Origin: Eledone cirrhosa
Taxonomy: Eukaryota
Length of the DNA: 64,000 nucleotides
Direction: 5' to 3'
Assembly (NCBI GenBank): GCA_964016885.1
Contig: OZ024746.1
Span: 51,274,001-51,338,000, forward strand
Shown here: piece after piece, positions 25,299-64,000 of the stretch
Numbering within the stretch: the stretch's first letter is position 1
Layout of the letters: each line of letters begins with the position of its first letter
Notes under the pieces: model-generated
Seen by the model: only the letters and a program-made list of their open reading frames with translations
Databases searched by the model: none
Told to the model about the DNA's origin: nothing
Made by a program: the position numbers and the translations under genes

Positions 25299-25403
25299 AT
25301 ATATATATATATATATATATACAGTAAAGTGTTGAGTGCTCTAAAAAATCAGTTATAAACATTTAGGTTTGTCTGACATCCAACAAATTAAATACCACTT
25401 CTA

Positions 25404-25512
<109 letters not shown>

Positions 25513-25678: not shown

Positions 25679-28627
<2,949 letters not shown>

Positions 28628-29034
28628 GGGAGAGATGACCCCTTAGCCTTTGTCAAGGCAGAATTCTAGGAGAAGGAAAACTCTGATATAACACCTGCAA
28701 CCCTGATGGTATCAAATGATATTGACTAGTTCTTCTTTTTGGTAAATATCATCTTGGTTAAGAGAGTGGGACTGGCTTTGTGCAGTGCCTTTGCTCACTA
28801 TAAAAGCTTCACGGCACAGGCATTACTTTATATCTGGAGATCTCTCTGCACTTGTCGTCACATGGTATCATGAGCCCAGCATTATGTGTCAATAATTGTC
28901 ACAAGTGTAGTGTCTGTACCAGAGTTTTCAAGTCGCTGGCTGGACTAAAAAGTGACACTCGTTCAGCGCATCGGCAGGACTTCTCCTACATGGATGTAAA
29001 GTAGTGGCCGTACTCGAAAACTAGTTGGCAGCCA

Positions 29035-35050: not shown

Positions 35051-35302
35051 ATTCTATCACTCGCTATAAACATGTCTATCTATCTATCTATCTATCTATC
35101 TTGATAGAGTGAGACACGCTTCACATCGGCTCTGCTATTCTATCGGAATTTACCCTTACTATAGTAAGTACCAATGAATTTTTTCAGTGCAACACATTTG
35201 GAACACTTGCCCCTGTTATTTAGGGAAACATTTTTACATTTACCCCCTTTTTAGGGGGTAAAATATATAACTATTTTTCTGTAAAACTTCTTTCTTGGAC
35301 GC

Positions 35303-36469
35303 ATGGCGGGAAAGATGGCAGACATGTCTCCCATTAGCTCTGCCACGCCCCCCAAGTCTGAAGAAGAAAAAATGGATACAATAAAACTAGACAACGAAAC
35401 AAACAAGGAAAATGAAAAAACAAATGTTACGGAAAATGAGCAAACGGAAAACAAACAAACAGAAAATAAGAATACAAAAAACAACAAGGCAACTTTCGCC
35501 CAGACAACAAAAAAATCTATAATATATACACCTATTGACTTAACTGCCGCCAGAGAAAAACTGGCAGAAGCAAAAAAGCACATAGTCTTGGAGGGGGGGG
35601 GGATGTTTTCCATTAATTCCCCCCCAGAATTCAAGAAAACGAGACTAGAAAACACTGTTCTGTTTAGAACAATTCTAAACCACACGAGAAAGCCAGCACA
35701 ACCCAGCCAAATGGAGATAGAGTTGTTCCTAAAAGACTATATGAAGAATATTCTCTTCATACGAAAGGACCGACTCTATGGCAGCATTTCTGTTTTAACA
35801 AAAGACAAGGAAACAGCACAGAGGCTTTCCCTAAGCCCACTATCAACAACAGCATACAGCTTCTATCCCTCCTACATGGGTAGAAAAACTCAGATTCAAA
35901 ATACAGACAATGCTGCCCACAATGGACTTCTGGTGGGCTATTGCTGGCTTCATAGACATAGGCGAGGACACAGTGCTGTCAATGGGAAGGCATCTGGAGA
36001 TGCGTTCCTGGGAATGGGCCTCGACTTACTAGTCCAAATGAGGCCCGAAAGAATAGCGCAAATCCCGGATCGCATCTGGCTGGATGACCTCACCCCAATA
36101 TATATAATTGTAGAGGGGAGAAGACCAGCATGCTATTCATGCATGGAAAGGGGACACGTTAAGGCTAACTGCCCGAATCGTATCCCCCAAAAAGTACTAT
36201 TGCCCACACCCACCACAAACAGTACACCAACACCACCCACCTCCAAAAATACACTAATACCACACACAGCAAACAAAATACAGACACCACCAACCACAAA
36301 CACAACACAAACATCACCACCACCAGCACCAAACACAAGCACGACACAAAAATCACCACCACCATCACCAACCACAACACAAACATCACCACCACCATCA
36401 CCAATCACAAGCACGACACAAACATCACCACCACCACCACAAAACATATTCCAAACTAATAATAAATAA
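35303..36469 (+). CDS. Tx1-like ORF1 (gag-like, CCHC zinc knuckle, Pro/Thr-rich repeat tail), probably prematurely stopped
   Basis: VEGRRPACYSCMERGHVKANC (CX2CX4HX4C) and TTQTSPPP repeats. Coding-like sequence continues to ~37151. Confidence 0.75.
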   Translation: MAGKMADMSPISSATPPKSEEEKMDTIKLDNETNKENEKTNVTENEQTENKQTENKNTKNNKATFAQTTKKSIIYTPIDLTAAREKLAEAKKHIVLEGGGMFSINSPPEFKKTRLENTVLFRTILNHTRKPAQPSQMEIELFLKDYMKNILFIRKDRLYGSISVLTKDKETAQRLSLSPLSTTAYSFYPSYMGRKTQIQNTDNAAHNGLLVGYCWLHRHRRGHSAVNGKASGDAFLGMGLDLLVQMRPERIAQIPDRIWLDDLTPIYIIVEGRRPACYSCMERGHVKANCPNRIPQKVLLPTPTTNSTPTPPTSKNTLIPHTANKIQTPPTTNTTQTSPPPAPNTSTTQKSPPPSPTTTQTSPPPSPITSTTQTSPPPPQNIFQTNNK

Positions 36470-37156
36470 AACAGCAACAAATCTACCCCTCCCGCAAAAA
36501 ACAACAACCAGACACCACGTCCCTCCCACCTAGCGCTGAAGAGTTTCCCCCAACTTCTGAAGAAGAAGGAGGAGAAGCCTTCAGACAAGTTAAAAGAAAA
36601 AAACGAAAGCACACACCCAGCACACCACAACAACAAATAACCCACACACAAACACCAACTCCAATCAAAAACACCCACCCTCGACAAACAAAAATAAATC
36701 TGCGCCTCCCCTCTTCGAAACATTGACAGCATCACAAAAAAAGACTTTGCAATACACATATATAAATAAAGAAAACAAAAAACTGTTTAAATTAATAAAC
36801 AATAGCCCTTTGGTGCAGACCGAAGGGCCAAACTTTATCTCAACAGAGAACTTCACCCATTTAAAAATGATAAAGTCCCTCTGGACCTTTATCGTTCCTT
36901 AAAAGAACAATTTAAACAGGACGTGAGCCCCCCCCCCCCCCTGTTTAAAACCGTTAAATCGCGTCCTCTTGAAAGATTTCCCCATAACCTCCCCTCTCCC
37001 TGACACAACTCCAAATACCCCAACCCCACCACACTCGGATACCCCCACACCACCACAAAACATCCCTCCACCCAACACACCCGACCCCATGGAAATTACA
37101 CAACCCGGAGAGGTAGGTGCTTTTCTTTCTTCACTTTCAACACCAAAATAGATCAA

Positions 37157-40100
37157 TTGAGAGTTGGCTGTTTGGATGCGCGTGGCCTGGGCTCAGCTTG
37201 GAAGCAAGCAAAGCTTCTAAGTGATCTCAGGTCACGAAGTATAGATGTGATGGTTGTTTGCGAGAGTCGGATCAGCAGCGTGCGACAGCTGGTTCCCGCC
37301 TTCGATGACTTTGAGATGCACGCATCTCTCTGTCAACCAGGAGGCGGGGGTGGGGTTGCCGTACTGCTGGATAAACGTCTGGCTCTCGACGTACAGATTG
37401 TTCACTCGGACCCGGGGGGTCGATTACTGGTGCTGGACGTCGGAGGCGGTGAAGGCGGGGCTTTCAGACTGGTCGGTCTTTATGCCCCCTTCGGGGCTGA
37501 AAGAGCCGACTTCTTCCAGCGTCTGGAGACTTTTCTAGGAACGTCGCGTTCCCTGCTTTTAGTGGGGGACTGGAATGGAATCCTAGATGCGCGTTGGGAC
37601 TATGCAGAGGCATGTCCCGATAGAGGGGGGTGTAGCAGCCTCAAGGGGTTACTCCATCGATTCGACCTGGTCGATAGATTTCGACTAGATTTTCCAACTG
37701 TGCCAACCTGGACCTGGGAAAACCGCAGTGGTCAATCTAGATCGTACCTAGATAGGTTTTTGGTTAGGAGTAAGGATAGGGACGTATTTAGTTGTCCAGA
37801 ATTGCTCATGGTTGGCTATTCAGATCACAAATTAGTGACCTGCGTGGTCAACCTTGAGAGAACGCATAGACATGGTCCCGTTTACTGGAAGATGAACTTG
37901 TCCTTGCCGGCAAAGGAAGCTTACAGGAACCGGATTAGTAGCTTAGTTAAGATGCGGTTGACGGGAGCGATCGTCAACAGCAGGTGGTGGGTATCTCTAA
38001 AGAGAGAGATTAAAGTAAGTTCGATAGGTTACAGTAAGGAACTAGCGGCGAATAGAAATAGGAGGGAAAGGGAGTTAACAGATAAACTAGAAGAGGCGAT
38101 TAGGAGCGGAGACGTGGCCAGAGTGTTAGCGTCGAGAACGGCGTTGAGCCAGTTCTTTGACGCGAAGCACGAAGGCTGCGTTGTCCGAAGTAAAATACGT
38201 GCTTTAGGAAACGAGGGGACCAAAGCTGTTGGCTGGGCCCGCGTGACAGAAGCCAAGAGTGGAATTAAATCCACCATTCGGTCTTTGCGAGACCAGGATG
38301 GACGGGTGATCCTTGAACCTGAGCGGATGTGCGAGGCCTTTCAAAGGGACTTTGCTCGACTGTTCGGAGGGGGCGGGGGGCCGGACGGGGATGTGGACTT
38401 CGGTCCATACCTCGACGGTCTACCGCGTCTTTCGAGCGGCGAAGCGGAGTGCTGCGAAAGGCCAATCACAGCCACTGAAATCGGTGAAGCGCTCAGCCAA
38501 TGCAGCAGACGCAAATCTCCGGGTCTCGATGGTCTACCATACGAACTTTATTTAGCTATGCCGGTCTTGTTCTCCGAACTCCTCGAGGCTGTCTATTGCA
38601 ACTGGCAACAGAACGGGAGAATTCCCTGTTCTGTGACCAAGGGCGTGGTCACGCTAGTGAGGAAGGACGAGAGCAAGGGGGACGACTTAAGTAACTTTAG
38701 GCCCATAACTCTGCTGAATGCAGAGTTACAGATTTTGGCCAAGGTGTTGGCGAAGAGGTTGGCGCTTGTGGTGGGTGGTTTGGTGGGAGACGCACAGACA
38801 TGCGCTATCCCGTCCAGATCCATTCACGACAACCTCCACCTCATGCGATACATCGTAGAGAGCGTTGGGAACGAACCCGGCTTTGGTGGGGCCCTGATCA
38901 ACTTAGATCAATCTAAGGCGTTCGATAGGGTCGACCATGGTTACCTGGATGCGGTGCTAGCGGCGGCGGGCTTCGGACCCGTTTTCAGGGGCTGGATTTC
39001 TGCCAGCACAGTGGCAACGTCTGCTCTAGGGTTAAAGTAAACGGCTACCTCTCGGAGCCGTTTCAAATCACCCGGTCCATCAGGCAGGGGTGCACCCTCT
39101 CCTCCCTTCTGTACGTATTGGCTCTCGAGCCACTGCTCCGGAAGTTGGAGTTGCTGCGGGGCATACCCCTGGAACCAGGATTGCACAAAGCGGTCTCGGC
39201 CTATGCCGACGACGTAACAGTAATGGTGGCGGACGCCTCGGAAATCGGGGCGATCGCCACCCTACTGGAGGAATACGAAAGGCTGACGGGGGCTAGGCTG
39301 AACCGGGACAAGTCAGTCGGTTTGCAACTCGGAACGCGGAGGGGCAAACCGATGCCGTTAGACGGTGTCGTCGGGCGGTGGACGGAGGGCCCGGTGAAGC
39401 TGCTCGGGGTCTGGTTCGGACCGGACCTCCAGGTGGAGAAGAATTGGGGCGAGGTGACGAGCAGGGTGTTTGCGCTGACCCAGAAGTGGGCCAAGTGCAA
39501 ACTATCACTGAAAGGTCGGGCGGAGGTGACCAACGCTTACATAGCGTCCGTCATCTACTACCGCCTGACCGTCGTGCCTTGCCCCAAGGAAACGCTCACC
39601 ATCATGGAGCGCATGCTCTTCCAGTTCCTCTAGAAGAAGCGGCCTCCCATGGTGAGGAGATCCATCTGCTGCCAGCACCCTTCGAAAGGAAGGCTGGGTA
39701 TGCCGTGGCTGTTGATGCGTAGGCTACGCATTGAGGCTACGGCATCTACAGGTATTCCTCACCGGTCAGCCGGTGGGCCCTGTTTGTGAGGCGAACCTTC
39801 CCACAGCTCGTCTCGCTCACCGAGCTGCAATCCTGGGTGAAGCAAAGACCGAGAAAACTGGGCAACTGGCACACCGAGTGTGCCCAGGCGCTCACGGCTC
39901 TCTGGCAAGCGGACCCGACTATCAGTGGAGAATCCACCTCGACATTCTATAGAGGGCTGGTGGCTAGCAGGGGCGACGACACCCTTGGAGAGTCGCTAGG
40001 CATGGAGGAGGACGAACTGGCCAGCCTGTTCGGTAGAACTTTCGGCCCGGGACCCATGGACAACTTCCAGAGGTCCCTAGCCTGGCAGTGCTACCGGGGG

Positions 40101-42246: not shown

Positions 42247-42563
42247 ATATATATATATATATTCAAAAAAGAAAGAGAGAAGATGTGTGGTTACCAATAA
42301 ATGTTTAGAAATCTTGGATGAAAACGCAAACACAAGGACAAGTATATATATATATATATATATGTGTGTGTATGTGTGTGTGTGTGTGTGTGTGTATGTA
42401 TATATATATCATCATTATCATCATATTTTAACGTCCATCTACGCACACACACACACATATATATATATATGTATGTATATATATATATATATGTATTTTT
42501 CCGGGAAAAACTTGAACCGTTAACATCTTCCTGGTTATGTCAATATTTATAAAACAAACTTTA

Positions 42564-42624
42564 TATTTTATCTGATGAGAGCGTACCAAAGTTTTGGTAC
42601 CCTTGAAATATATATAATAGAATA
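42564..42624 (+). ncRNA. Type I hammerhead ribozyme, intact; relative of the HHR of the intact PLE
   Basis: TATTTTAT-CTGATGA-GAGcGTACCAAA gt TTTGGTACcCTT-GAAA-TATATA-TA-ATAGAATA, followed by the same AATATGGTTTTATAAATATAGTTTCCATTTATTTAAT tail as at 58008. Confidence 0.88.
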
Positions 42625-43244
42625 AATATGGTTTTATAAATATAGTTTCCATTTATTTAATATCATTGAATATTATACTCCAGAAAACTTGTCGAGTTCT
42701 TCGAATCAGTTATAAACATTTATATTTGTTGAATTACCAACACATTAAATATCCCTTTTGCTTATATATATATATGTCCCTCTACCCCTCTCTCTATTGA
42801 CCTTTAGGAATGATACTTATATTAATACTCCATTATGAACAGAACAAGCCTATAAGGACCTATATCATAGTTGATATGGTACAACTTACGTGGAGTACGT
42901 AATCCTGTTTACATTTCAATTAATTGATTATTGTGACGTAAGATTCACACTTCTAATTAATTAATTAATTAACTAATTAATCATTTAGATAAACGATATG
43001 AATGTGTATATATATATACAAGTATTGCACCAAGAAAAATATAACGTCGGCGTGAAGGAGATTATGAATTCATTTGCTTTGACATATGTTTCTATGTCTA
43101 TTATAAATTGTCGACCTATGCTGACTATGATATATATTGTTCAAACATATGCAATACATAGTTATTTATTACACTTCACCAGAAAGCCTATAGTAGTGGA
43201 ATTCAACTATTCACTACGCGGCTGACACACACACACACACACAC

Positions 43245-43282: not shown

Positions 43283-44670
43283 AGATCAAAAGATGGTTAA
43301 AGGAGTTCCATGTATTTTATTATGCGTATTTCAAAAACAAACATCATCATGCAATAATATTTGTGTTTTCATCAGATAAAACAGGAGAACATGATATGAA
43401 GGCTAAAAAACACTTGTGGATAGTGCAGTTTTAAATCTACATATGAAAAGTGGTTTTAGATTGATGTGTGATATTGGGAAAAATATTTTATTTAGAGAGG
43501 GGGGGGGGTGGAAAGGATGAAAAAGGGGGAGGAGATGAGAGGGAGAGATGGGTGATAGAGAGAAAGAGATAGCTTTTATAACTGAGAGGAGATATACTGT
43601 CCCACACAGAGAGGTTGAAAACCGTTGGAAGATAATGTATAAACCCCAAAAAATTTTTGAAAATCAACGAAAGGAGGATATGTGCGAGGAAAAAGTATTT
43701 TATTTAAGGAGGGGGGCTGGAAAGGATGAAAAAAGGGGGAGGAGATGAGAGTGAAGGTGGAGAGGGAGAGATGGGCGATAGAGAGAAAGAGATAGTTTTT
43801 ATAACTGAGAGAAAGATACATTGCCTTACACAGAGAGGTTGAGAAACCGTTGGAAGATAATGTATAAATTAAAGGAATTTGAAAATTAACGAAGGGAATT
43901 TATGTATGAAGATAGAGAGAAGAAATAATAATTGTGGATGAATATTCTAACGTCAAAAAAAGGGTATGTTGTGGCAATTTCAAAATTAACGAAGAGAAAA
44001 ATTTATTAAGGTTTGTGTGTAGAAGGATTTGAGAAAAATAATGTGAAGTTAAAGTTTGTATATTGGAGGAATTGATAATATATGCGAATAGAGTTAATAT
44101 GTATTAAGAATGAGTTCGTTGATGGGGGAGAAAAAAAAATAAATTAAGGATGAAATTGAGATTAAAAAGATTTATGAGAGAGAGAGAAAAAAATAATGAT
44201 TGCGGATAAATATTCTAACGTAAAAAAAAACAGATGTATATGTTATGGATGATTTTACAAGGTGAAGATAGAGTGAGGGTAATGAGTAAACAAGTATTAT
44301 AGAGTGTATAAAGCCCTTTAAAGTATGGTAGGAAGATGGGTATATTTTAAAGAGGTGTATGTATATGTGCCTTTGAGAAAAGATTCTAAATTGATAAAGA
44401 ATTGAATATTAACTGTATACTTTGTGAAAAGTTCTATGGAATTTATGCAGGCAGATAGAAAACAAATCTGTGCGTCTATTTATTATAGAATCTAGGTTAG
44501 AGATAATGGTAAATTTTTCATTTAGGCAGAGATTACAGATTTTAGATAGAGAGCTGTTCAAGTATGAGGATGCAGAAGAAATCTTCTTCCAAAAGATGGT
44601 ATATTTAATGTTTTTGTCTTTTAAGGACCATATGAGTTCTGAGAGAGCAGTGTTAGTTCTTTTAAGTTTG
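43276..44670 (-). mobile_element. 5'-truncated Penelope-like element: GIY-YIG C-terminus, ~1 kb 3' UTR with tandem duplication, hammerhead, then (TA)n
   Basis: TALSELIWSLK...ICNLCLNEKFTII...NRRTDLFSICLHK at 44409-44670, HHR at 43313-43383. Confidence 0.85.
43313..43383 (-). ncRNA. Type I hammerhead ribozyme, intact core
   Basis: Minus strand reads TGTTTTAT-CTGATGA-long G.U-rich stem II-GAAA-TACGCA-TA-ATAAAATA, near-identical to 61996-62066. Confidence 0.85.
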
Positions 44671-44871
44671 TATATATATATATATGTGTGTGTGTGCGTG
44701 TGTGTGTATGTGTAGGATACAGGGGCCGACGGTCCAAGAAACAACGCCATGCGTTCGGCCTTTCAATGTTTATTTTAAGTTTTGCCGTCTGAAGAGCTTA
44801 GCCTACCATAACTGATATTCCTCAGTGAAATATGTTTTAAATAAACCTGATTCAACAGAATATTACCTCCG

Positions 44872-45164: not shown

Positions 45165-47469
<2,305 letters not shown>

Positions 47470-49941: not shown

Positions 49942-50690
49942 TACACACACAGAAATGTATATATATTTCTGTGTGTATGTATATATTACACACACAGAAA
50001 TGTATATATATATACACACAGAAATATATATACATCCCTTAGCTACTGTACTCTATCTGTTCCTATCTCTCTCTCTCTCCAGCTATCCCTCTCTTTTAGT
50101 CTGTCTGTTTCTCTCACTCTCACTCTTTCTCTTTGTAACTCACTAACATTCCTTCCCTCTATCGCTGTGACAAATGGGGAGATGGAGGAGGAGGAGGAGG
50201 AGAGAGTCACTTCGTCACTTCACCTCTGCCTTTCTTTCTCTCCCCTCTCACTCCCTCATTACGTACAGACATTAGGGCGGTGGATTGGCAGATTCTGTAG
50301 AGAGTCGGACACCATGCTTCATAGCATGGAGTTACGTCCCTTTACGGTCTGAGTTCAAATACCGCCGAGGTTAACTTTGCCTTTCATCCTCACGGTGTCG
50401 ATAAAATAAAGTACCAGTAATGTACTGGGTAATAGCTGGCCTTGTGCCAAAAGTAGAAACAATTATTAGAAACATGCTTCATTTTTACATATCTAAGCAT
50501 TAGTAAAATAACTAATAATTTCAAAAGTAATTTTTCAATTCCAATTGTTATGAACAGCAAAACATTAATAATAATTTTGTTCTAAAAAATATATATACAT
50601 TTCTGTGTGTGTAATATATATATATATACACACAGAAATATATATACATTTCTGTGTGTGTAATATATATATATATATATATATATATAT
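49666..50690. repeat. Palindromic-unit minisatellite ACACACAGAAATATATATACATTTCTGTGTGT + (TA)n, interrupted by a SINE (50274-50468, +)
   Basis: Unit seen repeatedly at 49666-50035 and 50587-50665, and again at 58088-58115 beyond the PLE pair. Confidence 0.8.
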
Positions 50691-53600
50691 GGAAAGTTAT
50701 ATTTAAAATTGTTGGGTTACAACTAGTAAATATTTATAACTGATATAAAAGCACTCGACAAATATTTGGAGTATATTTACAATATTAAATAAATGGAAAC
50801 TATATTTATAAAACCATATTTATTTCATTATATATATTTCGGGGATATCATATTAACAATATGCTATGCCTTCCTCAGACAAAATACAATATAAACAGTT
50901 TTATAGATAAATAGATTCGACATACCGTAACAACACCGACTTGCATTTGAAGAGGTTGAACTGGCAGTGAAAAAATTTTACACAGAGAGAAAGAAAGAGA
51001 GAAAAAAGAAAGAAAGACAGAAAACGAAGAAAAGGAAGAAAAAGAAGAAATGCATGGAACAAAATAGAGAGATGGAAAGATAGATAAAGAGAAGAACTTC
51101 ATGTAAAGAAACAGAAAGAGATATATATATATAGAGAGAGAGGAAATAGAGATAGATACATATATATATAGAAAATTAGGTAGTGGGAGGTCAGTTGAAT
51201 AAATGTATCAATGATACATTTATTTATTTATTTATTTATTTAGCTCTAGTATTAATGTAAGGGAGATATATAGAGAGAGAAAAAAAATATAGAGAGAGAA
51301 AAAAATAGCGAGAGAAAAAATTTAAAAATAGCCAGATATATTCGAGGCGTAAAAACCCTATGTTTTAATGTATTTATAAAACTTCCACTATATTGTAAAT
51401 ATCAGTATTCCTGAATGAGACAAGTATCCATAGTGTGTGAAAATTAATTATCTTATGTTTAGTTTTTTAAAAAAATTCATATGTTTATGTGATAGCTACA
51501 AACATCCATGTGAATCCACATGATCAACTCTGCAAACTCTAAGTTCACGGAAAACATTCTCAATGTGGTATAAAAATTTGAGTATACATATATGTGTATT
51601 ATTATTCCTGTCTTTACTCTACAAGATTATCTATCAAGCAGAAATAGAGAGCAGATTTCAATATACTAATAAAAATATATATCAGAAACAAAACTAAAAA
51701 AATAACAATAATAATAATAAGTAGAAAACTAAAAAAATATTACGAAAGAATATTACATATTAAAAATATTACATATTAAAAAATTTACATATTAAAGATA
51801 TTAAAAATAAAAATAAAAAATATTAGAAAATACTACAATAATAAAAAATAAAAATAAACCACAAAGATCAACCCTTCAAAATTAATTGACAATATATTGC
51901 CAAGTTCATTATAAGCATCAGAGTCGAAAAACAGACAAAGCCAAAAATTATCTATCAAATCACATCTAGCAAAGATCATTTCAAAATGTTTATGATGCCC
52001 AATTTGGTCTACATGTGTTCTTATATTTAATATAGAAGTTTATCTAGTGTAAGGTTTATTCAAAATATTTGGAGCATCAGCTTTTAGGGTAGCTTAATTT
52101 TTCATGAGGAATGTTTAAATAAAAATAAAATAAAAATAAACAATAAAAAAGAATAAAAAGAAGGAATCAAAAATTTATCGGCTAGTTTCCCATATAAATA
52201 TAAATCAAACTAAATATACTACATTTTAAATTTAAATTTATATTTAAACGTTGAGTTTAATCTATGTTTGCAACAACTGAATAAATTTGTCCGTAGATTA
52301 AGGGAATTCTTAGATTTTAGTATAAAGAATATCTCCTCTGCGCAGAGGTCACATGTCTCAGAGGATGAATTAAAAGGAATCCCTCTTGAGACTATATTCC
52401 AAGCCGTCGAATATCTAACGTTATCTAGCTTAAGTTGCCAGAGTACGCCTGATAGTGCCGTTGAAGATTTTTTGCTTGGATCTGTGAAAGAATTCTTGTG
52501 GTTATTATAGCGAAGTTTAAATTCCGTCGATGTGGAACCGACGTAGTTAAAAGAATTAGAGTCAGTATTAACATTACAATTGTATACTATATTTTTAACT
52601 AAGCAGTTGTTATTTAACGGACATTTAGATCTATCTCTACAGTTACATTTGTTAACTTGTATATTATTTATGCTATTATCACTAGGTTTTAAGTTCCTAT
52701 TATTTATTCTATTAATATTTTGTGCTAAATTTTTGGTGGATGAGTAGGTTAATTTAATTGTATGCCTATTGAAAATTGAGTGATACCTATGTGTTCTAGG
52801 GAAGCGATTATCAAGAGCTTTGAAAAATAGTTTAGCGATGTGGGTTTTAATGTTTAGTGAGAAAGGGGGGGGCAAACCAAATTATGTTCCTAGTTCTATT
52901 TCTTTTTTGGCCTTTGGAATTATTGTAATGCTTTCTATTTTAGTTGTTAAGGTTGTTGCCGTAATTAAAAAAGTTGTTACTTTGTTTAGTTTGTCTATCA
53001 TTATCTATGTACACAATCTTATCAGCATATCCTGCCCTAGCTAATGCTTCATTATAGTATTGGGCCTTTTCGTCGAAAATCTTTCTATTCGACGAGATCC
53101 TAGAGATACGTTTTTGAACAGAGTTTACTATAGTGTTTTTGACAGATCTGGGGTGGTTAGAGTTAAAGTTGACATAGTTTAAGTTTTCATTCAACTTGTG
53201 AAAAGGATAGTGGAGACATGTGTTGAGATTTAATGTTATATCTAGGAAATTGACTATTCTATGGTTGTTCTCAATTTCTATTTTAAGATTAAAGTAATTA
53301 AAAAATTTTGTAATTTGTTTACATTTTCTATTTAGTTCAGGGTTATTATTATTAATAAGTAAAAGCATGTCATCTCTATATAAACCTCCGGTAGTACCAG
53401 GTATTTTCCTATGTAGCGAATTGATTAAAAATAAGCCCACAAGGTCAGTTACCTGAGCTGAGTCGGATGATCCCATAGTTATGTCAAAATTGCTATCTCT
53501 ATCTGCTCTGGTCCATAATTTGTCATTAAATTCTATCAAAGTTTTCCTAGTCGATAATATAATATGCATTTCTTTGCTAGTTAGGTCAGTATGTTTGAAT

Positions 53601-54317
53601 GCGTAATTTAGTGCCTTATTTAGTAGACTAGGGGTAATAGAAGAATAATAGTTAGCTATATCAAGTTGAATAAACCTATTATTATTGTTATATTTAATTT
53701 GCTTAAACCACTCAACAACCTCTCCAGTTCCCTTCCACAAGCTCAGGTTAGATACACAATCCAAGTTCTTAATTTGCTGTATCACCCTGTCAAGAATGTT
53801 TTTGCTTAATTTGCCCAGGTCCGATTTTGATGGTGCGATCAATCTAACTGGCAGGTCATTTTCAAAATTCCTCTTGTGATCCTTCATATCGATCTTCGGT
53901 TTCCTGGGCACGAAAGGTTGTGTTCTGTTCTCAATTTCCAACTCGTGCATTATACAAGATGCTTCGACATTCATTTTCTCAAGTTCGGCCTTATCTGCTA
54001 CCTTGTACTTTTTCCTCAGCTCTTTCAGTATGAGGCCATTATACATGTCTTTCTGCACTCCATAGAGGTTGTTGGTCTTGTCAGATTTCACCAAGATCTT
54101 CTCAGTTTTCTCTAAGCTCCCAATGTTATCCTTAATGCCTTTCAGATATTATTGGCCTTTGAAGTTTCTCTTGAATTTGACCCCTTGTATGATAGAAATT
54201 ATATCGTTTTCAAAGTCAGATAAAAGTTTGTTAGGGGGTGGATTTCTTTTAGATTTGAAAACTTTGTTTAAGTCCGAGACATTTTCGTTTGCATTAGATT
54301 TATCAAAGTGGAATGCA
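50689..54317 (-). pseudogene. Inverted, 5'-truncated and disabled copy of the intact PLE
   Basis: Reverse complement of 54505-58050 plus ~90 bp extra 3' tail. Lacks the first ~39 codons. Stops at ~54150 and ~52941, +1 frameshift in the G-run at ~52870. Confidence 0.93.
50821..50886 (-). ncRNA. Type I hammerhead at the 3' end of the inverted PLE copy
   Basis: Minus strand reads TATTTTGT-CTGAGGA-aGGcATAgCATATT gtt AATATGaTATcCCc-GAAA-TATATA-TA-ATGAAATA. Confidence 0.78.
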
Positions 54318-54388
54318 ACAATTTTAAATATAACTTTCCATGTATCTTGCTCCAATACTGTTGAGCGCTTTATATTATAACTGGAAAA

Positions 54389-56602
54389 ATGGAATTCTTT
54401 AAGATTACTTCCTCTCTAAAAGACATACCTCTACCTAGAAACAAAGACTTTATAAAACAATTAATAGATAAATCTGACTCTTTTATAAGGAGAATCAGGT
54501 GGCGTGCATTCCACTTTGATAAATCTAATGCAAACGAAAATGTCTCGGACTTAAACAAAGTTTTCAAATCTAAAAGAAATCCACCCCCTAACAAACTTTT
54601 ATCTGACTTTGAAAACGATATAATTTCTATCATACAAGGGGTCAAATTCAAGAGAAACTTCAAAGGCCAGGAATATCTGAAAGGCATTAAGGATAACATT
54701 GGGAGCTTAGAGAAAACTGAGAAGATCTTGGTGAAATCTGACAAGACCAACAACCTCTATGGAGTGCAGAAAGACATGTATAATGGCCTCATACTGAAAG
54801 AGCTGAGGAAAAAGTACAAGGTAGCAGATAAGGCCGAACTTGAGAAAATGAATGTCGAAGCATCTTGTATAATGCACGAGTTGGAAATTGAGAACAGAAC
54901 ACAACCTTTCGTGCCCAGGAAACCGAAGATCGATATGAAGGATCACAAGAGGAATTTTGAAAATGACCTGCCAGTTAGATTGATCGCACCATCAAAATCG
55001 GACCTGGGCAAATTAAGCAAAAACATTCTTGACAGGGTGATACAGCAAATTAAGAACTTGGATTGTGTATCTAACCTGAGCTTGTGGAAGGGAACTGGAG
55101 AGGTTGTTGAGTGGTTTAAGCAAATTAAATATAACAATAATAATAGGTTTATTCAACTTGATATAGCTAACTATTATTCTTCTATTACCCCTAGTCTACT
55201 AAATAAGGCACTAAATTACGCATTCAAACATACTGACCTAACTAGCAAAGAAATGCATATTATATTATCGACTAGGAAAACTTTGATAGAATTTAATGAC
55301 AAATTATGGACCAGAGCAGATAGAGATAGCAATTTTGACATAACTATGGGATCATCCGACTCAGCTCAGGTAACTGACCTTGTGGGCTTATTTTTAATCA
55401 ATTCGCTACATAGGAAAATACCTGGTACTACCGGAGGTTTATATAGAGATGACATGCTTTTACTTATTAATAATAATAACCCTGAACTAAATAGAAAATG
55501 TAAACAAATTACAAAATTTTTTAATTACTTTAATCTTAAAATAGAAATTGAGAACAACCATAGAATAGTCAATTTCCTAGATATAACATTAAATCTCAAC
55601 ACATGTCTCCACTATCCTTTTCACAAGTTGAATGAAAACTTAAACTATGTCAACTTTAACTCTAACCACCCCAGATCTGTCAAAAACACTATAGTAAACT
55701 CTGTTCAAAAACGTATCTCTAGGATCTCGTCGAATAGAAAGATTTTCGACGAAAAGGCCCAATACTATAATGAAGCATTAGCTAGGGCAGGATATGCTGA
55801 TAAGATTGTGTACATAGATAATGATAGACAAACTAAACAAAGTAACAACTTTTTTAATTACGGCAACAACCTTAACAACTATAATAGAAAGCATTACAAT
55901 AATTCCAAAGGCCAAAAAAGAAATAGAACTAGGAACATAATTTGGTTTGCCCCCCCTTTCTCACTAAACATTAAAACCCACATCGCTAAACTATTTTTCA
56001 AAGCTCTTGATAATCGCTTCCCTAGAACACATAGGTATCACTCAATTTTCAATAGGCATACAATTAAATTAACCTACTCATCCACCAAAAATTTAGCACA
56101 AAATATTAATAGAATAAATAATAGGAACTTAAAACCTAGTGATAATAGCATAAATAATATACAAGTTAACAAATGTAACTGTAGAGATAGATCTAAATGT
56201 CCGTTAAATAACAACTGCTTAGTTAAAAATATAGTATACAATTGTAATGTTAATACTGACTCTAATTCTTTTAACTACGTCGGTTCCACATCGACGGAAT
56301 TTAAACTTCGCTATAATAACCACAAGAATTCTTTCACAGATCCAAGCAAAAAATCTTCAACGGCACTATCAGGCGTACTCTGGCAACTTAAGCTAGATAA
56401 CGTTAGATATTCGACGGCTTGGAATATAGTCTCAAGAGGGATTCCTTTTAATTCATCCTCTGAGACATGTGACCTCTGCGCAGAGGAGATATTCTTTATA
56501 CTAAAATCTAAAAATTCCCTTAATCTACGGACAAATTTATTCAGTTGTTGCAAACATAGATTAAACTCAACGTTTAAATATAAATTTAAATTTAAAATGT
56601 AG
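54389..56602 (+). CDS. Intact Penelope-like element ORF: reverse transcriptase + Cys-rich linker + C-terminal GIY-YIG endonuclease (737 aa)
   Basis: VKSDKTNN, PVRLIAP, IQLDIANYYSSI, TMGS, GLYRDD, VNFLDI, SNHP (PLE RT). IIWFAPP and CNCR...CPL...CL. IVY...YVGST...FKLRY..H and CDLC..E (GIY-YIG). Confidence 0.95.
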   Translation: MEFFKITSSLKDIPLPRNKDFIKQLIDKSDSFIRRIRWRAFHFDKSNANENVSDLNKVFKSKRNPPPNKLLSDFENDIISIIQGVKFKRNFKGQEYLKGIKDNIGSLEKTEKILVKSDKTNNLYGVQKDMYNGLILKELRKKYKVADKAELEKMNVEASCIMHELEIENRTQPFVPRKPKIDMKDHKRNFENDLPVRLIAPSKSDLGKLSKNILDRVIQQIKNLDCVSNLSLWKGTGEVVEWFKQIKYNNNNRFIQLDIANYYSSITPSLLNKALNYAFKHTDLTSKEMHIILSTRKTLIEFNDKLWTRADRDSNFDITMGSSDSAQVTDLVGLFLINSLHRKIPGTTGGLYRDDMLLLINNNNPELNRKCKQITKFFNYFNLKIEIENNHRIVNFLDITLNLNTCLHYPFHKLNENLNYVNFNSNHPRSVKNTIVNSVQKRISRISSNRKIFDEKAQYYNEALARAGYADKIVYIDNDRQTKQSNNFFNYGNNLNNYNRKHYNNSKGQKRNRTRNIIWFAPPFSLNIKTHIAKLFFKALDNRFPRTHRYHSIFNRHTIKLTYSSTKNLAQNINRINNRNLKPSDNSINNIQVNKCNCRDRSKCPLNNNCLVKNIVYNCNVNTDSNSFNYVGSTSTEFKLRYNNHKNSFTDPSKKSSTALSGVLWQLKLDNVRYSTAWNIVSRGIPFNSSSETCDLCAEEIFFILKSKNSLNLRTNLFSCCKHRLNSTFKYKFKFKM

Positions 56603-57940
56603 TATATTTAGTTTGATTTATATTTATATGGGAAACTAGCCGATAAATTTTTGATTCCTTCTTTTTATTCTTTTTTTATTGTTTATTTTTATTTTATTTT
56701 TATTTAAACATTCCTCATGAAAAATTAAGCTACCCTAAAAGCTGATGCTCCAAATATTTTGAATAAACCTTACACTAGATAAACTTCTATATTAAATATA
56801 AGAACACATGTAGACCGAATTGGGCATCATAAACTTTTTGAAATGATCTTTGCTAGATGTGATTTGATAGATAATTTTTAGCTTTGTCTGTTTTTCGACT
56901 CTGATGCTTATAATGAACTTGGCAATATATTGTCAATTAATTTTGAAGGGTTGATCTTTGTGGTTTATTTTTATTTTTTATTATTGTAGTATTTTCTAAT
57001 ATTTTTTATTTTTATTTTTAATATCTTTAATATGTAAATTTTTTAATATGTAATATTTTTAATATGTAATATTCTTTCGTAATATTTTTTTAGTTTTCTA
57101 CTTATTATTATTATTGTTATTTTTTTAGTTTTGTTTCTGATATATATTTTTATTAGTATATTGAAATCTGCTCTCTATTTCTGCTTGATAGATAATCTTG
57201 TAGAGTAAAGACAGGAATAATAATACACATATATGTATACTCAAATTTTTATACCACATTGAGAATGTTTTCCGTGAACTTAGAGTTTGCAGAGTTGATC
57301 ATGTGGATTCACATGGATGTTTGTAGCTATCACATAAACATATGAATTTTTTTAAAAAACTAAACATAAGATAATTAATTTTCACACACTATGGATACTT
57401 GTCTCATTCAGGAATACTGATATTTACAATATAGTGGAAGTTTTATAAATACTAATACATTAAAACATAGGGTTTTTACGCCTCGAATATATCTGGCTAT
57501 TTTTAAATTTTTTCTCTCGCTATTTTTTTCTCTCTCTATATTTTTTTTCTCTCTATATATATCTCCCTTACATTAATACTAGAGCTAAATAAATAAATAA
57601 ATAAATAAATGTATCATTGATACATTTACTCAACTGACCTCCCACTACCTAATTTTCTCTATATATATGTATCTATCTCTATTTCCTCTCTCTCTATATA
57701 TATATCTCTTTCTGTTTCTTTACATGAAGTTCTTCTCTTTATCTATCTTTCCATCTCTCTATTTTGTTCCATGCATTTCTTCTTTTTCTTCCTTTTCTTC
57801 GTTTTCTGTCTTTCTTTCTTTTTTTCTCTCTTTCTTTCTCTCTGTGTAAAATTTTTTCACTGCCAGTTCAACCTCTTCAAATGCAAGTCGGTGTTGTTAC
57901 GGTATGTCGAATCTATTTATCTATAAAACTGTTTATATTG

Positions 57941-58007
57941 TATTTTGTCTGAGGAAGGCATAGCATATTGTTAATATGATATCCCCGAAATATATATAAA
58001 GAAAATA
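57941..58007 (+). ncRNA. Type I hammerhead at the 3' end of the intact PLE (stem I weakened relative to the mirror copy)
   Basis: TATTTTGT-CTGAGGA-stem II-GAAA-TATATA-TA-AAGAAAATA. Confidence 0.72.
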
Positions 58008-58044
58008 AATATGGTTTTATAAATATAGTTTCCATTTATTTAAT

Positions 58045-58096
<52 letters not shown>

Positions 58097-62526: not shown

Positions 62527-64000
62527 CTAAAATAACAGATTAAAGTTTAAGCAAAGAATCGCTGCTTTCGCCCTTAACGGGATCTTCTGAAACTAACAAA
62601 GTCAATCTGTAAACGCAGAACTAGATATTTCAAAAAACGTTGCAACCGGAGGAAGACAGGAAGACGATACTTTGATTCGTGGAAACGTTCGCTGGCTAAG
62701 AACGGGAAAAAACGAATAATACGTCATTAATAGGAGCGGTGAAAAACAATTACGCGCAAAGACAGAACCACGCTTATGGTATAAAAGAGGTCGTAGACTA
62801 ATATTCTCTTAGGTGGTGCATAGAGACGTTATCTGGCAATGAACGAGAAAACGAAGATAATACGTCATATGTGGAGCGTGGAGAACAATAGCACGCAAAG
62901 ACAAAACCACGTAAATGGTATAGCAGAAGTCGTAGACTAAAATTCTAACTAGGAGACCAAATGAATCTCCGCTACAGAGTTAAGAACAAGTAAATAAATA
63001 CAATACAGAAGTAATAGAAATAAATAAATACATACACGCAAACAAATACGTACATACACAAGCATACGCAAAACCTTACCATAGGTATACAAAACCACGC
63101 ACATATAAATATGTGTGTGTGTGTGTATGCGTGTATACTTATATAAACGTATATACATAAATAAATACGTATATAACAAGCGCACACACATACCTACATA
63201 TACATACACGAATGTTCGGAGACGTAAGTCAACTAAAACAAGAAGTACACGTATACACACACCCACCATACGCACGAACCCGCATACTCACACAGACGCA
63301 AAACTCCCGTATACACATAGCCAAACCCTATGTACCAGAATATATAAAATTATACGCCAAAACAATCAAATATACGTACGAGAAGGTATACGTACCTTCA
63401 CAAAACAAACGGGTAATACATACTTACCTATGAAAATAAGTAAAGGAATAAACAAAACATATACGTAGCTCCCACATCAAGACGTAAAATATCCACGTAT
63501 AGATCGTACTATCCGTTAGGGTATAAAGTGGGGCTGTAATACAGGAAAGTTTTGTGCAATTTATGTTTACAAGCCGAAATTGCCTCAGAATTTTTGTTTA
63601 AGATGTGGTCTGTGGCGTAGAGTATTTCCAGGGCCTCAGCGGCTCAGATGTCACATGGTCTTTTATTTCCGTTATACGATCTAGCCCTAGCTAGGATCTC
63701 CCAGTGTAACTTATATTGGGTGTGGTTGTCTTTTAGACTCCAGATATAAGCTGAAAGTGACGTCATATTCCTTCTTAGAGGGTAACGAAAAGAATTGGTA
63801 TGCATGTAAAGGCGCTGCTTGAAACTATTGGCGGTTAACCCTATGTAGGCCCTACGGGACGTGGGTGTTACAACCTTACATTTGTAGACAATGTTACTAG
63901 AGAGGTAACATTTTTAATAGAAATACTATTAAAATGTCTTACCCTACGACTCCTAACCTTGCACATAACGTCACAGCTTCAAATTTAGCTAAACTACCTA
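62524..64000 (-). mobile_element. Decayed Penelope-like element 3' portion (GIY-YIG remnant absent from the ORF track, 3' UTR with ~140 bp tandem duplication, HHR-like motif, (TA)n); runs off the window
   Basis: Manual translation of 63907-63516 (-): LSSNIVYKCKV...RAYIGLTANSFKQRLYMHTNSF...TSLSAYIWSLK...WEILARA...CDI*AAE...LNKNSEAISACKHK. Confidence 0.85.
62544..62594 (-). ncRNA. Hammerhead-like motif with variant core (CAGAAGA)
   Basis: Minus strand reads AGTTT-CAGAAGA-tCCC gttaa GGGc-GAAA-GCAG cgattct TTGC-TT-AAACT, with distal pairing ACAGATTGA/TTAATCTGT. Confidence 0.65.

What the first reader, a model, noticed from the sequence alone, without database searches (positions are those of the whole stretch)
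42564..42770. Natural covariation: same PLE terminus, completely rewritten hammerhead stem II
Seen: 42564-42662 shares stem I, GAAATATATATA and a ~40 nt downstream tail with the HHR at 57941/50821. Stem II, however, is GAGcGTACCAAA/TTTGGTACcCTT instead of GGcATAgCATATT/AATATGaTATcCC, and the free core position differs (CTGATGA vs CTGAGGA). A third tail relative is at ~25325-25410. Structure is conserved while sequence is not, which is the best in-window evidence for selection on ribozyme function.
Basis: seen in the sequence. Interest (0 to 1): 0.72.

Follow-up and report, generated by a model that had tools for sequence, protein, structure and literature searches.

The report
Penelope hammerhead stem changed stepwise
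These are hammerhead-ribozyme motifs at the ends of a very abundant, known kind of jumping gene; their stem was changed in small matched steps rather than rewritten, which likely reflects selection on the RNA fold in the parent elements, and the most strictly kept parts are an unpaired cytosine pair and the 47 letters after the predicted cut site.

Summary
The motif is real. 42564-42624 is a type I hammerhead in a 5'-truncated end of a Hydra-type Penelope-like element (PLE); 21,402 genome copies match its clade.

Corrections: 50821 and 57941 are two arms of one insertion, and 25325 has no ribozyme. Stem II is not rewritten: 7 of 12 pairs are identical, 3 compensated, 2 broken, with G-U intermediates in other subfamilies.

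Inherited changes keep pairs more often than private ones (6:1 vs 16:48; p 0.003-0.19 by method). Such covariation is published for PLE hammerheads (PMC4209133).

Extras: a fixed C.C mismatch (71,751 vs 371 paired copies), noted before by this scan elsewhere in this genome, and 47 nt after the cut site that are 45/47 identical between lineages with about 57-62% protein identity. Under 1.5% of copies end at the cut site, so uncut or religated RNA is the likely template. Cleavage is untested.

The parts
42496..42763 (+). 5'-truncated 3' end of a PLE (lineage A), between (TA)n runs; short inverted piece at the 5' junction
   Evidence: 40 of 1297 candidates scored, full-length matches 96-100% identical
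42564..42571 (+). stem I, 5' strand
42572..42578 (+). catalytic core C3-A9 (N7 = U)
42579..42604 (+). stem II and loop; G.U at 10.1-11.1; C.C mismatch at 42582/42601
   Evidence: predicted -9.3 kcal/mol
42605..42616 (+). G12-A14, palindromic 8-nt helix III, H17 = A; predicted cut after 42616
   Evidence: cut site by the core consensus given in PMC3088659
42617..42663 (+). stem I 3' strand and near-invariant 47-nt segment, ending at the short 3' terminus of the family
   Evidence: 44,318 exact genome copies of a 26-mer from it
42664..42763 (+). ~95-nt optional tail, ending at the long 3' terminus
50690..54317 (-). inverted 5'-truncated arm of the lineage-B2 insertion, with tail
50821..50886 (-). 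hammerhead of lineage B2 (core 50878-50872; A.C, C.C and G.A mismatches in stem II)
   Evidence: predicted -4.9 kcal/mol
54318..58048 (+). full-length arm of the same insertion: ~25 nt of the previous unit's tail, ~47-nt leader, ORF, ~1.3-kb 3' UTR, hammerhead, short terminus
54389..56602 (+). intact 737-aa RT plus C-terminal GIY-YIG-type ORF with Hydra-clade motifs
57941..58006 (+). second arm's hammerhead; stem I 3' strand carries a private change that breaks pair I.2
25322..25406 (+). tail-only fragment of a related subfamily, no ribozyme

Best explanation
The motif is a type I hammerhead at the 3' end of a Hydra-type Penelope-like retrotransposon, and the two stem II variants come from two diverged lineages of the element whose parent copies were likely selected to keep a cleavage-competent fold while the stem changed pair by pair. 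Shown: homology of the stems, intermediates, covariation across families, the ORF and tandem layout. Inferred: G-U pairs served as stepping stones (pair 2 A-U > G-U > G-C; pair 6 U-A > U-G > C-G). The ribozyme likely cuts weakly, as a dimer through the palindromic helix III and probably with help from the element's protein. Reverse transcription likely starts inside uncut or religated tandem RNA at two sites about 50 and 140 nt past the cut site, which would give the two observed 3' ends. The 47-nt segment between the cut site and the first end is likely a recognition site for that protein. The 42564 copy itself is a dead insertion.
For: Flank-only clustering and tree recover the stem types and a ladder A-D-C-B; protein identity to the window ORF falls in the same order: 94, 90, 86, 82, 79, then 55-62% for lineage A. 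Structure-blind alignment of 33 real copies: 90 cells changed on both sides vs 26.8 shuffled, 0/500; slid controls at most 20. Tree-aware test: II.3 and II.6 E 0.0025, II.2 0.0075, II.5 0.06, II.7 0.18. Private changes in 131 insertions keep 16 and break 48 pairs; hand-counted lineage steps keep 6 and break 1 (p 0.003). N7 changes 6 times on the tree, other core positions never (core was required in most searches), and a ribozyme-blind sample had intact cores in 26 of 30 loci with only private lesions. Helix III variants stay self-complementary. L157 is inverted piece + 1009-bp partial tandem + 3747-bp unit. In 27 of 27 inverted pairs exactly one arm has the tail. PMC11167929 (parts 1-2 of 4 read) shows two internal RT starts, the tail between them, and protein-assisted cleavage for a Poseidon element.
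Against: No pair is significant within the A-D clade (best E 0.95; 0.87). The inherited-vs-private contrast depends on method: p 0.19 and 0.03 by automatic parsimony on 100 of the 131 insertions, 0.017-0.087 before three lineage haplotypes were added, 0.018 if two doubtful shared breaks are counted. Pair 8 was lost in lineage B and pair 1 is unpaired in 9 of 33. The B2 stem is predicted to be poorly formed (pair probabilities 0.0-0.3; z +0.67), yet B2 holds the intact ORF. I chose the representatives; several are single copies, and shared ancestry was checked by protein only for A-C, E and G. The test is my own R-scape-like script, not R-scape. In PMC11167929 cleavage was not needed for insertion in vitro.
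Confidence: 0.72

Rival explanations
1. The fold is kept as a binding or folding signal for the element's RT, and cleavage is vestigial or deliberately damped.
For: 296 matches (control 92) run into (TA)n at the cut site, against 21,402 and 71,751 that carry the motif. Pair 10.1-11.1 is G-C in only 4 of 33. Stem II weakens along lineage B from -12.2 to -4.9 kcal/mol. Catalytic mutants did not impair insertion in PMC11167929.
Against: Only N7, the free core position, varies among lineages; A15.1-U16.1 and H17 are kept; helix III stays self-complementary. U.U at 10.1-11.1 is reported as tolerated (PMC3088659).
Confidence: 0.18
2. The matched changes arose without selection, from shared descent or from hairpin-templated repair during reverse transcription.
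For: No significance inside the clade; these elements fold back often (inverted arms); few independent events.
Against: Templated repair would give perfect Watson-Crick stems and erase mismatches, yet C.C persists in 71,751 copies vs 371 scattered C-G copies and G-U states were amplified. The null keeps the tree and still rejects chance for 3 pairs.
Confidence: 0.06
3. Cleavage serves translation: in tandem RNA the cut would leave a 187-nt uncapped leader before the ORF, starting with the invariant segment.
For: Cut site to ATG is 187 nt in L157. Type I hammerheads in viral 5' UTRs promote cap-independent translation (PMC13725137, abstract and discussion read).
Against: Two upstream ATGs lie in that leader. 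The cited effect was shown in fungal and plant cells and was small for isolated ribozymes. No data from this element.
Confidence: 0.12

Closest known systems
Hydra-clade Penelope-like elements and their hammerheads (Craig et al. 2021, PMC8557442; passages, section 11, Files S1/S2 read)
   Same: Single ORF with C-terminal GIY-YIG-type domain; RW(K/R), DKT, CxCx5C, CxxC and CxH motifs, no CCHH; (TA)n targets; type I hammerhead near the 3' end; first stem II pair often non-canonical.
   Different: Unit is 3747 bp with a 1.0-1.8-kb 3' UTR (published: generally <3 kb); stem II is interrupted by C.C at pair 4, seen in none of the 26 Hydra rows of File S2 (whose descriptor favours paired stems); tail ~95 nt rather than 30-40.
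Minimal hammerheads in pLTRs of metazoan PLEs (Cervera and De la Pena 2014, PMC4209133; parts 1-2 of 4 read)
   Same: [quoted passage not shown]
   Different: No extra nucleotide between A9 and 10.1, and G10.1-C11.1 is not conserved.
Poseidon element PAc of Anolis (Frangieh et al. 2024, PMC11167929; parts 1-2 of 4 read)
   Same: Two discrete 3' ends downstream of the hammerhead with an optional tail between them; copies do not end at the cut site.
   Different: In PAc the ribozyme overlaps the ORF start; here it lies 187 nt before the next ATG. Different clade; no biochemistry here.

Membership tests
Type I hammerhead ribozyme | Core C3 U4 G5 A6 N7 G8 A9, G12 A13 A14, A15.1-U16.1, H17 | tested here: met
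   consensus as
Type I hammerhead ribozyme | Stems I, II, III around the core, ends in stem I | tested here: met
   stem I 90.9%, stem II 94.9% of cells paired; helix III only 2 bp as monomer
Type I hammerhead ribozyme | Site-specific self-cleavage after H17 | not testable with these tools
   needs a cleavage assay
Hydra-clade PLE | Single ORF, RT with C-terminal GIY-YIG endonuclease | tested here: met
   737 aa; YRDD at 352, VY...YVG at 615-632; 153 homologues; no Pfam hit for the query itself
Hydra-clade PLE | RWK, DKT, CxCx5C linker, CxxC and CxH, no CCHH | tested here: met
   RWR 37 (K to R), DKT 118, CxCx5C 596, CxxC 694, CxH 721, no CCHH-like match
Hydra-clade PLE | (TA)n insertion, partial tandem pLTR, inverted 5'-truncated copy, optional tail | tested here: met
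Hydra-clade PLE | Placement in the Hydra clade of an RT phylogeny | not tested
   no reference Hydra, Neptune or Nematis proteins were aligned
min-HHR consensus of Cervera and De la Pena 2014 | Palindromic minimal helix III, long helix II, location in pLTR | tested here: met
min-HHR consensus of Cervera and De la Pena 2014 | Extra nucleotide between A9 and 10.1 | tested here: not met
   stems pair in register without it; sliding by one column drops pairing from 87.7% to 30-36%
min-HHR consensus of Cervera and De la Pena 2014 | Highly conserved G10.1-C11.1 | tested here: not met
   A-U 11, G.U 9, G-C 4, unpaired 9 of 33
Non-LTR retrozyme (tandem non-coding repeats with a hammerhead per unit) | Short tandem non-coding units | tested here: not met
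   copies are dispersed truncated ends of a coding 3.7-kb unit; definition

The most novel reading that the evidence does not exclude
The fixed unpaired C in stem II and the near-invariant 47 nt between the cut site and the first 3' end form the docking site through which the element's own RT switches the ribozyme on and picks its start site. Tens of thousands of dated copies along one lineage ladder would then give a natural mutational scan of a protein-assisted ribozyme and a direct handle on what PLE hammerheads do.
Probability: 0.25. Interest if true: 0.62.

Novelty: new variant of a known kind. Interest (0 to 1): 0.33.

Why it matters
The role of hammerheads in PLEs is an open question (stated so in PMC8557442). 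This family supplies an intact ORF, an ordered series of natural ribozyme variants with G-U intermediates, and two sharply defined candidate contact sites, so cleavage, dimer dependence and protein help can be tested on matched natural variants.

Tried and rejected
Rfam scans found no hammerhead; Pfam found nothing on 5 ORFs. Idea that copies are primed at the cleaved 3' end on (TA)n: rejected, under 1.5% end there. Idea that the invariant segment is a separate hairpin: rejected, mean z 0.0 over 32 representatives, 6 below -1. Idea of an intron from an upstream GTATGT to the tail: donor not kept in lineage A, not pursued. A tiny upstream ORF and AATAAA in the invariant segment: not shared by all families, left as leads. 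No RNA holder listed. Laying two contig runs: the second organism's run held one near-identical B2 piece at low depth, not taken as independent. Metagenome scan: 118 loci, 11 passed a loose filter, none has both stem I and the mismatch. Automatic parsimony on collapsed trees was noisy because subfamilies fell into polytomies; reported anyway. Rows dropped: 9 of 180 unparsed, 7 with stem deletions or duplications, inverted partners removed to reach 131, 31 short-flank copies. Lunse et al. 2017 on dimeric PLE hammerheads was not held; I saw only its citation and a review's passage, so it or the unread supplements of PMC4209133 may show the mismatch. Searches for the mismatch in print: (0 papers).

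Full report
Observation. The window lies in a 3.0-Gb, microsatellite-rich animal genome; the closest named protein relatives are from Argonauta hians. At 42564-42624 there is a type I hammerhead: stem I, core CTGATGA, a 26-nt stem-loop II, GAA, a palindromic 8-nt helix III and H17 = A. It aligns with the 50878(-) copy over 223 columns (E 2e-38). The 50821 and 57941 motifs are arms of one head-to-head insertion (99.3% over 3555 bp). The 25325 relative is tail only. So the window offers two independent ribozymes of this clade.

Is stem II rewritten? No. In register from the core, 7 of 12 pairs are identical, pairs 2, 5 and 11 are compensated, and pairs 1 and 8 changed on both sides into mismatches. 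Stem plus loop is 16/31 identical, the upstream 42 nt 21/42, the tail 73/99, and the 47 nt after the cut site 45/47.

What carries it. The B arm holds an intact 737-aa ORF (54389-56602) with RT and C-terminal GIY-YIG-type motifs and the Hydra-clade signatures listed by Craig et al.. Locus L157 shows the textbook layout: inverted piece, 1009-bp partial tandem, 3747-bp unit; the tail runs straight into the next unit's leader, and the cut site is 187 nt before the ATG. The window's full arm begins with ~25 nt of the previous unit's tail. Lineage A ribozymes also lie about 1.0-1.2 kb behind related ORFs, 55-62% identical to the window protein in partly decayed copies. The 42564 copy is a ~270-bp truncated end of a family whose best-scored copies are 96-98% identical to it.

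Homologues. A pattern with free stem II found 21,402 copies, control 0. I parsed 171 of 180 tail-anchored ends and reduced them to 131 independent insertions. Clusters and a tree made from flanks alone recover the stem types and a ladder from A through D and C to B; protein identity follows the same order. Along it pair 2 goes A-U, G-U, G-C; pair 6 goes U-A, U-G, C-G and back to U-A; pair 5 goes G-C to A-U; pair 8 goes C-G, C.A, A.A, G.A and is lost, while lineage B lengthens the stem.

Tests of selection. (a) Private changes keep 16 pairs and break 48; hand-counted lineage steps keep 6 and break 1 (p 0.003), or 6 and 3 with two doubtful shared breaks (p 0.018). Other versions gave p 0.017-0.087 and 0.19 and 0.03 (100 insertions). 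(b) A sequence-only alignment of 33 real copies from this clade and about eight other families: pairs 2, 3, 5, 6 paired in 33 of 33, pair 7 in 32, pair 1 in 24; 90 double-change cells vs 26.8 in shuffles. (c) My R-scape-like test with a tree-preserving null: the top 5 of 666 column pairs are stem II pairs, three at E<0.01; two stay significant with 15 spread representatives; none is significant among the 15 of the A-D clade (an earlier hand-anchored run gave five pairs at E<0.05 and again none within the clade). (d) N7 changes 6 times on the tree and the other core positions not at all. The core was required in most searches, but 26 of 30 ribozyme-blind loci had it intact and the other 4 had private lesions. 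Selection on the fold is therefore likely; it acted in parent elements, and the in-window pair alone does not establish it.

What is kept most strictly. First, the mismatch at pair 4: unpaired in 33 of 33, with the 5' C never changing while its neighbours change 2-9 times. Genome-wide, C.C occurs 71,751 times and C-G 371 times, the latter scattered over many families in the 100 rows listed. It is absent from the 26 Hydra rows of Craig's File S2, and I found no paper on it; one key paper was not available. This scan noted it before in the same genome (e1-8670794, seen after my own tests). Second, the 47 nt after the cut site: almost identical across lineages A to B, 44,318 exact copies of a 26-mer, not explained by a hairpin of its own, and different in family G, which is about as distant from B as A is.

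Mechanism. Copies end at two places, about +45-57 and +135-149 from the cut site, and in 27 of 27 inverted pairs exactly one arm has the long end. Only 296 matches (control 92) run into (TA)n at the cut site. This fits Frangieh et al.: RT starts at two internal sites of uncut RNA, the tail lies between them, and the ribozyme cuts only with the protein. It also fits the religated-circle model of Cervera and De la Pena; my data do not separate the two. I infer a weak, dimer- and protein-assisted ribozyme, with the invariant segment as a protein recognition site. Against a strong need for cleavage: pair 10.1-11.1 is loose, and the lineage with the intact ORF has the weakest predicted stem.

Verdict. 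A real, selected structure of a known class. Covariation among PLE hammerhead families within a genome is published. It works like the min-HHRs but fails two of their consensus traits, and it fits the Hydra clade by motifs, with phylogeny untested. The interrupted stem II and the invariant post-cut segment make it a variant worth an assay. Interest 0.33.

Noticed in passing
window 25929 (-): A hammerhead with a canonical 4-bp stem II and 6-nt loop, about 1.6 kb behind a PLE endonuclease fragment at 27556-28665 (-).
   Followed up: no
window 24342 (+), 43375 (-), 61871 (-), 62004 (+), 30401 (+): Five more hammerhead motifs of other families; the first four have C.C or C.U at pair 4, the last has a short uninterrupted stem II and a 6-nt helix III.
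   Followed up: partly
L130:1494-1559 (-), L134, L112: Family G carries a second CTGA-N-GA box inside its stem II loop in many copies; it gives false short-stem hits.
   Followed up: no
L157:2540-2690; window 54344-54388: The leader before the ATG resembles the first ~45 nt of the tail, an internal direct duplication; both 3' termini lie near a TTTCCAT motif in lineage B.
   Followed up: no
representatives: Many families end about 50 nt after the cut site despite different sequence, and several share an ACTCC motif about 10 nt beyond that end.
   Followed up: no
window 42543-42556 with 42630-42643: Predicted extension of stem I; 5'-strand variants in other subfamilies keep pairing through G-U while the 3' strand is fixed.
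   Followed up: partly
window 44409-44762 (-), 45311-46624 (+), 63644-63913 (-): Further fragments of related PLE ORFs.
   Followed up: no
window 35285-39633 (+): A LINE-like element: ORF1-like 394-aa frame and a broken endonuclease-RT frame (family by recall, not tested).
   Followed up: no
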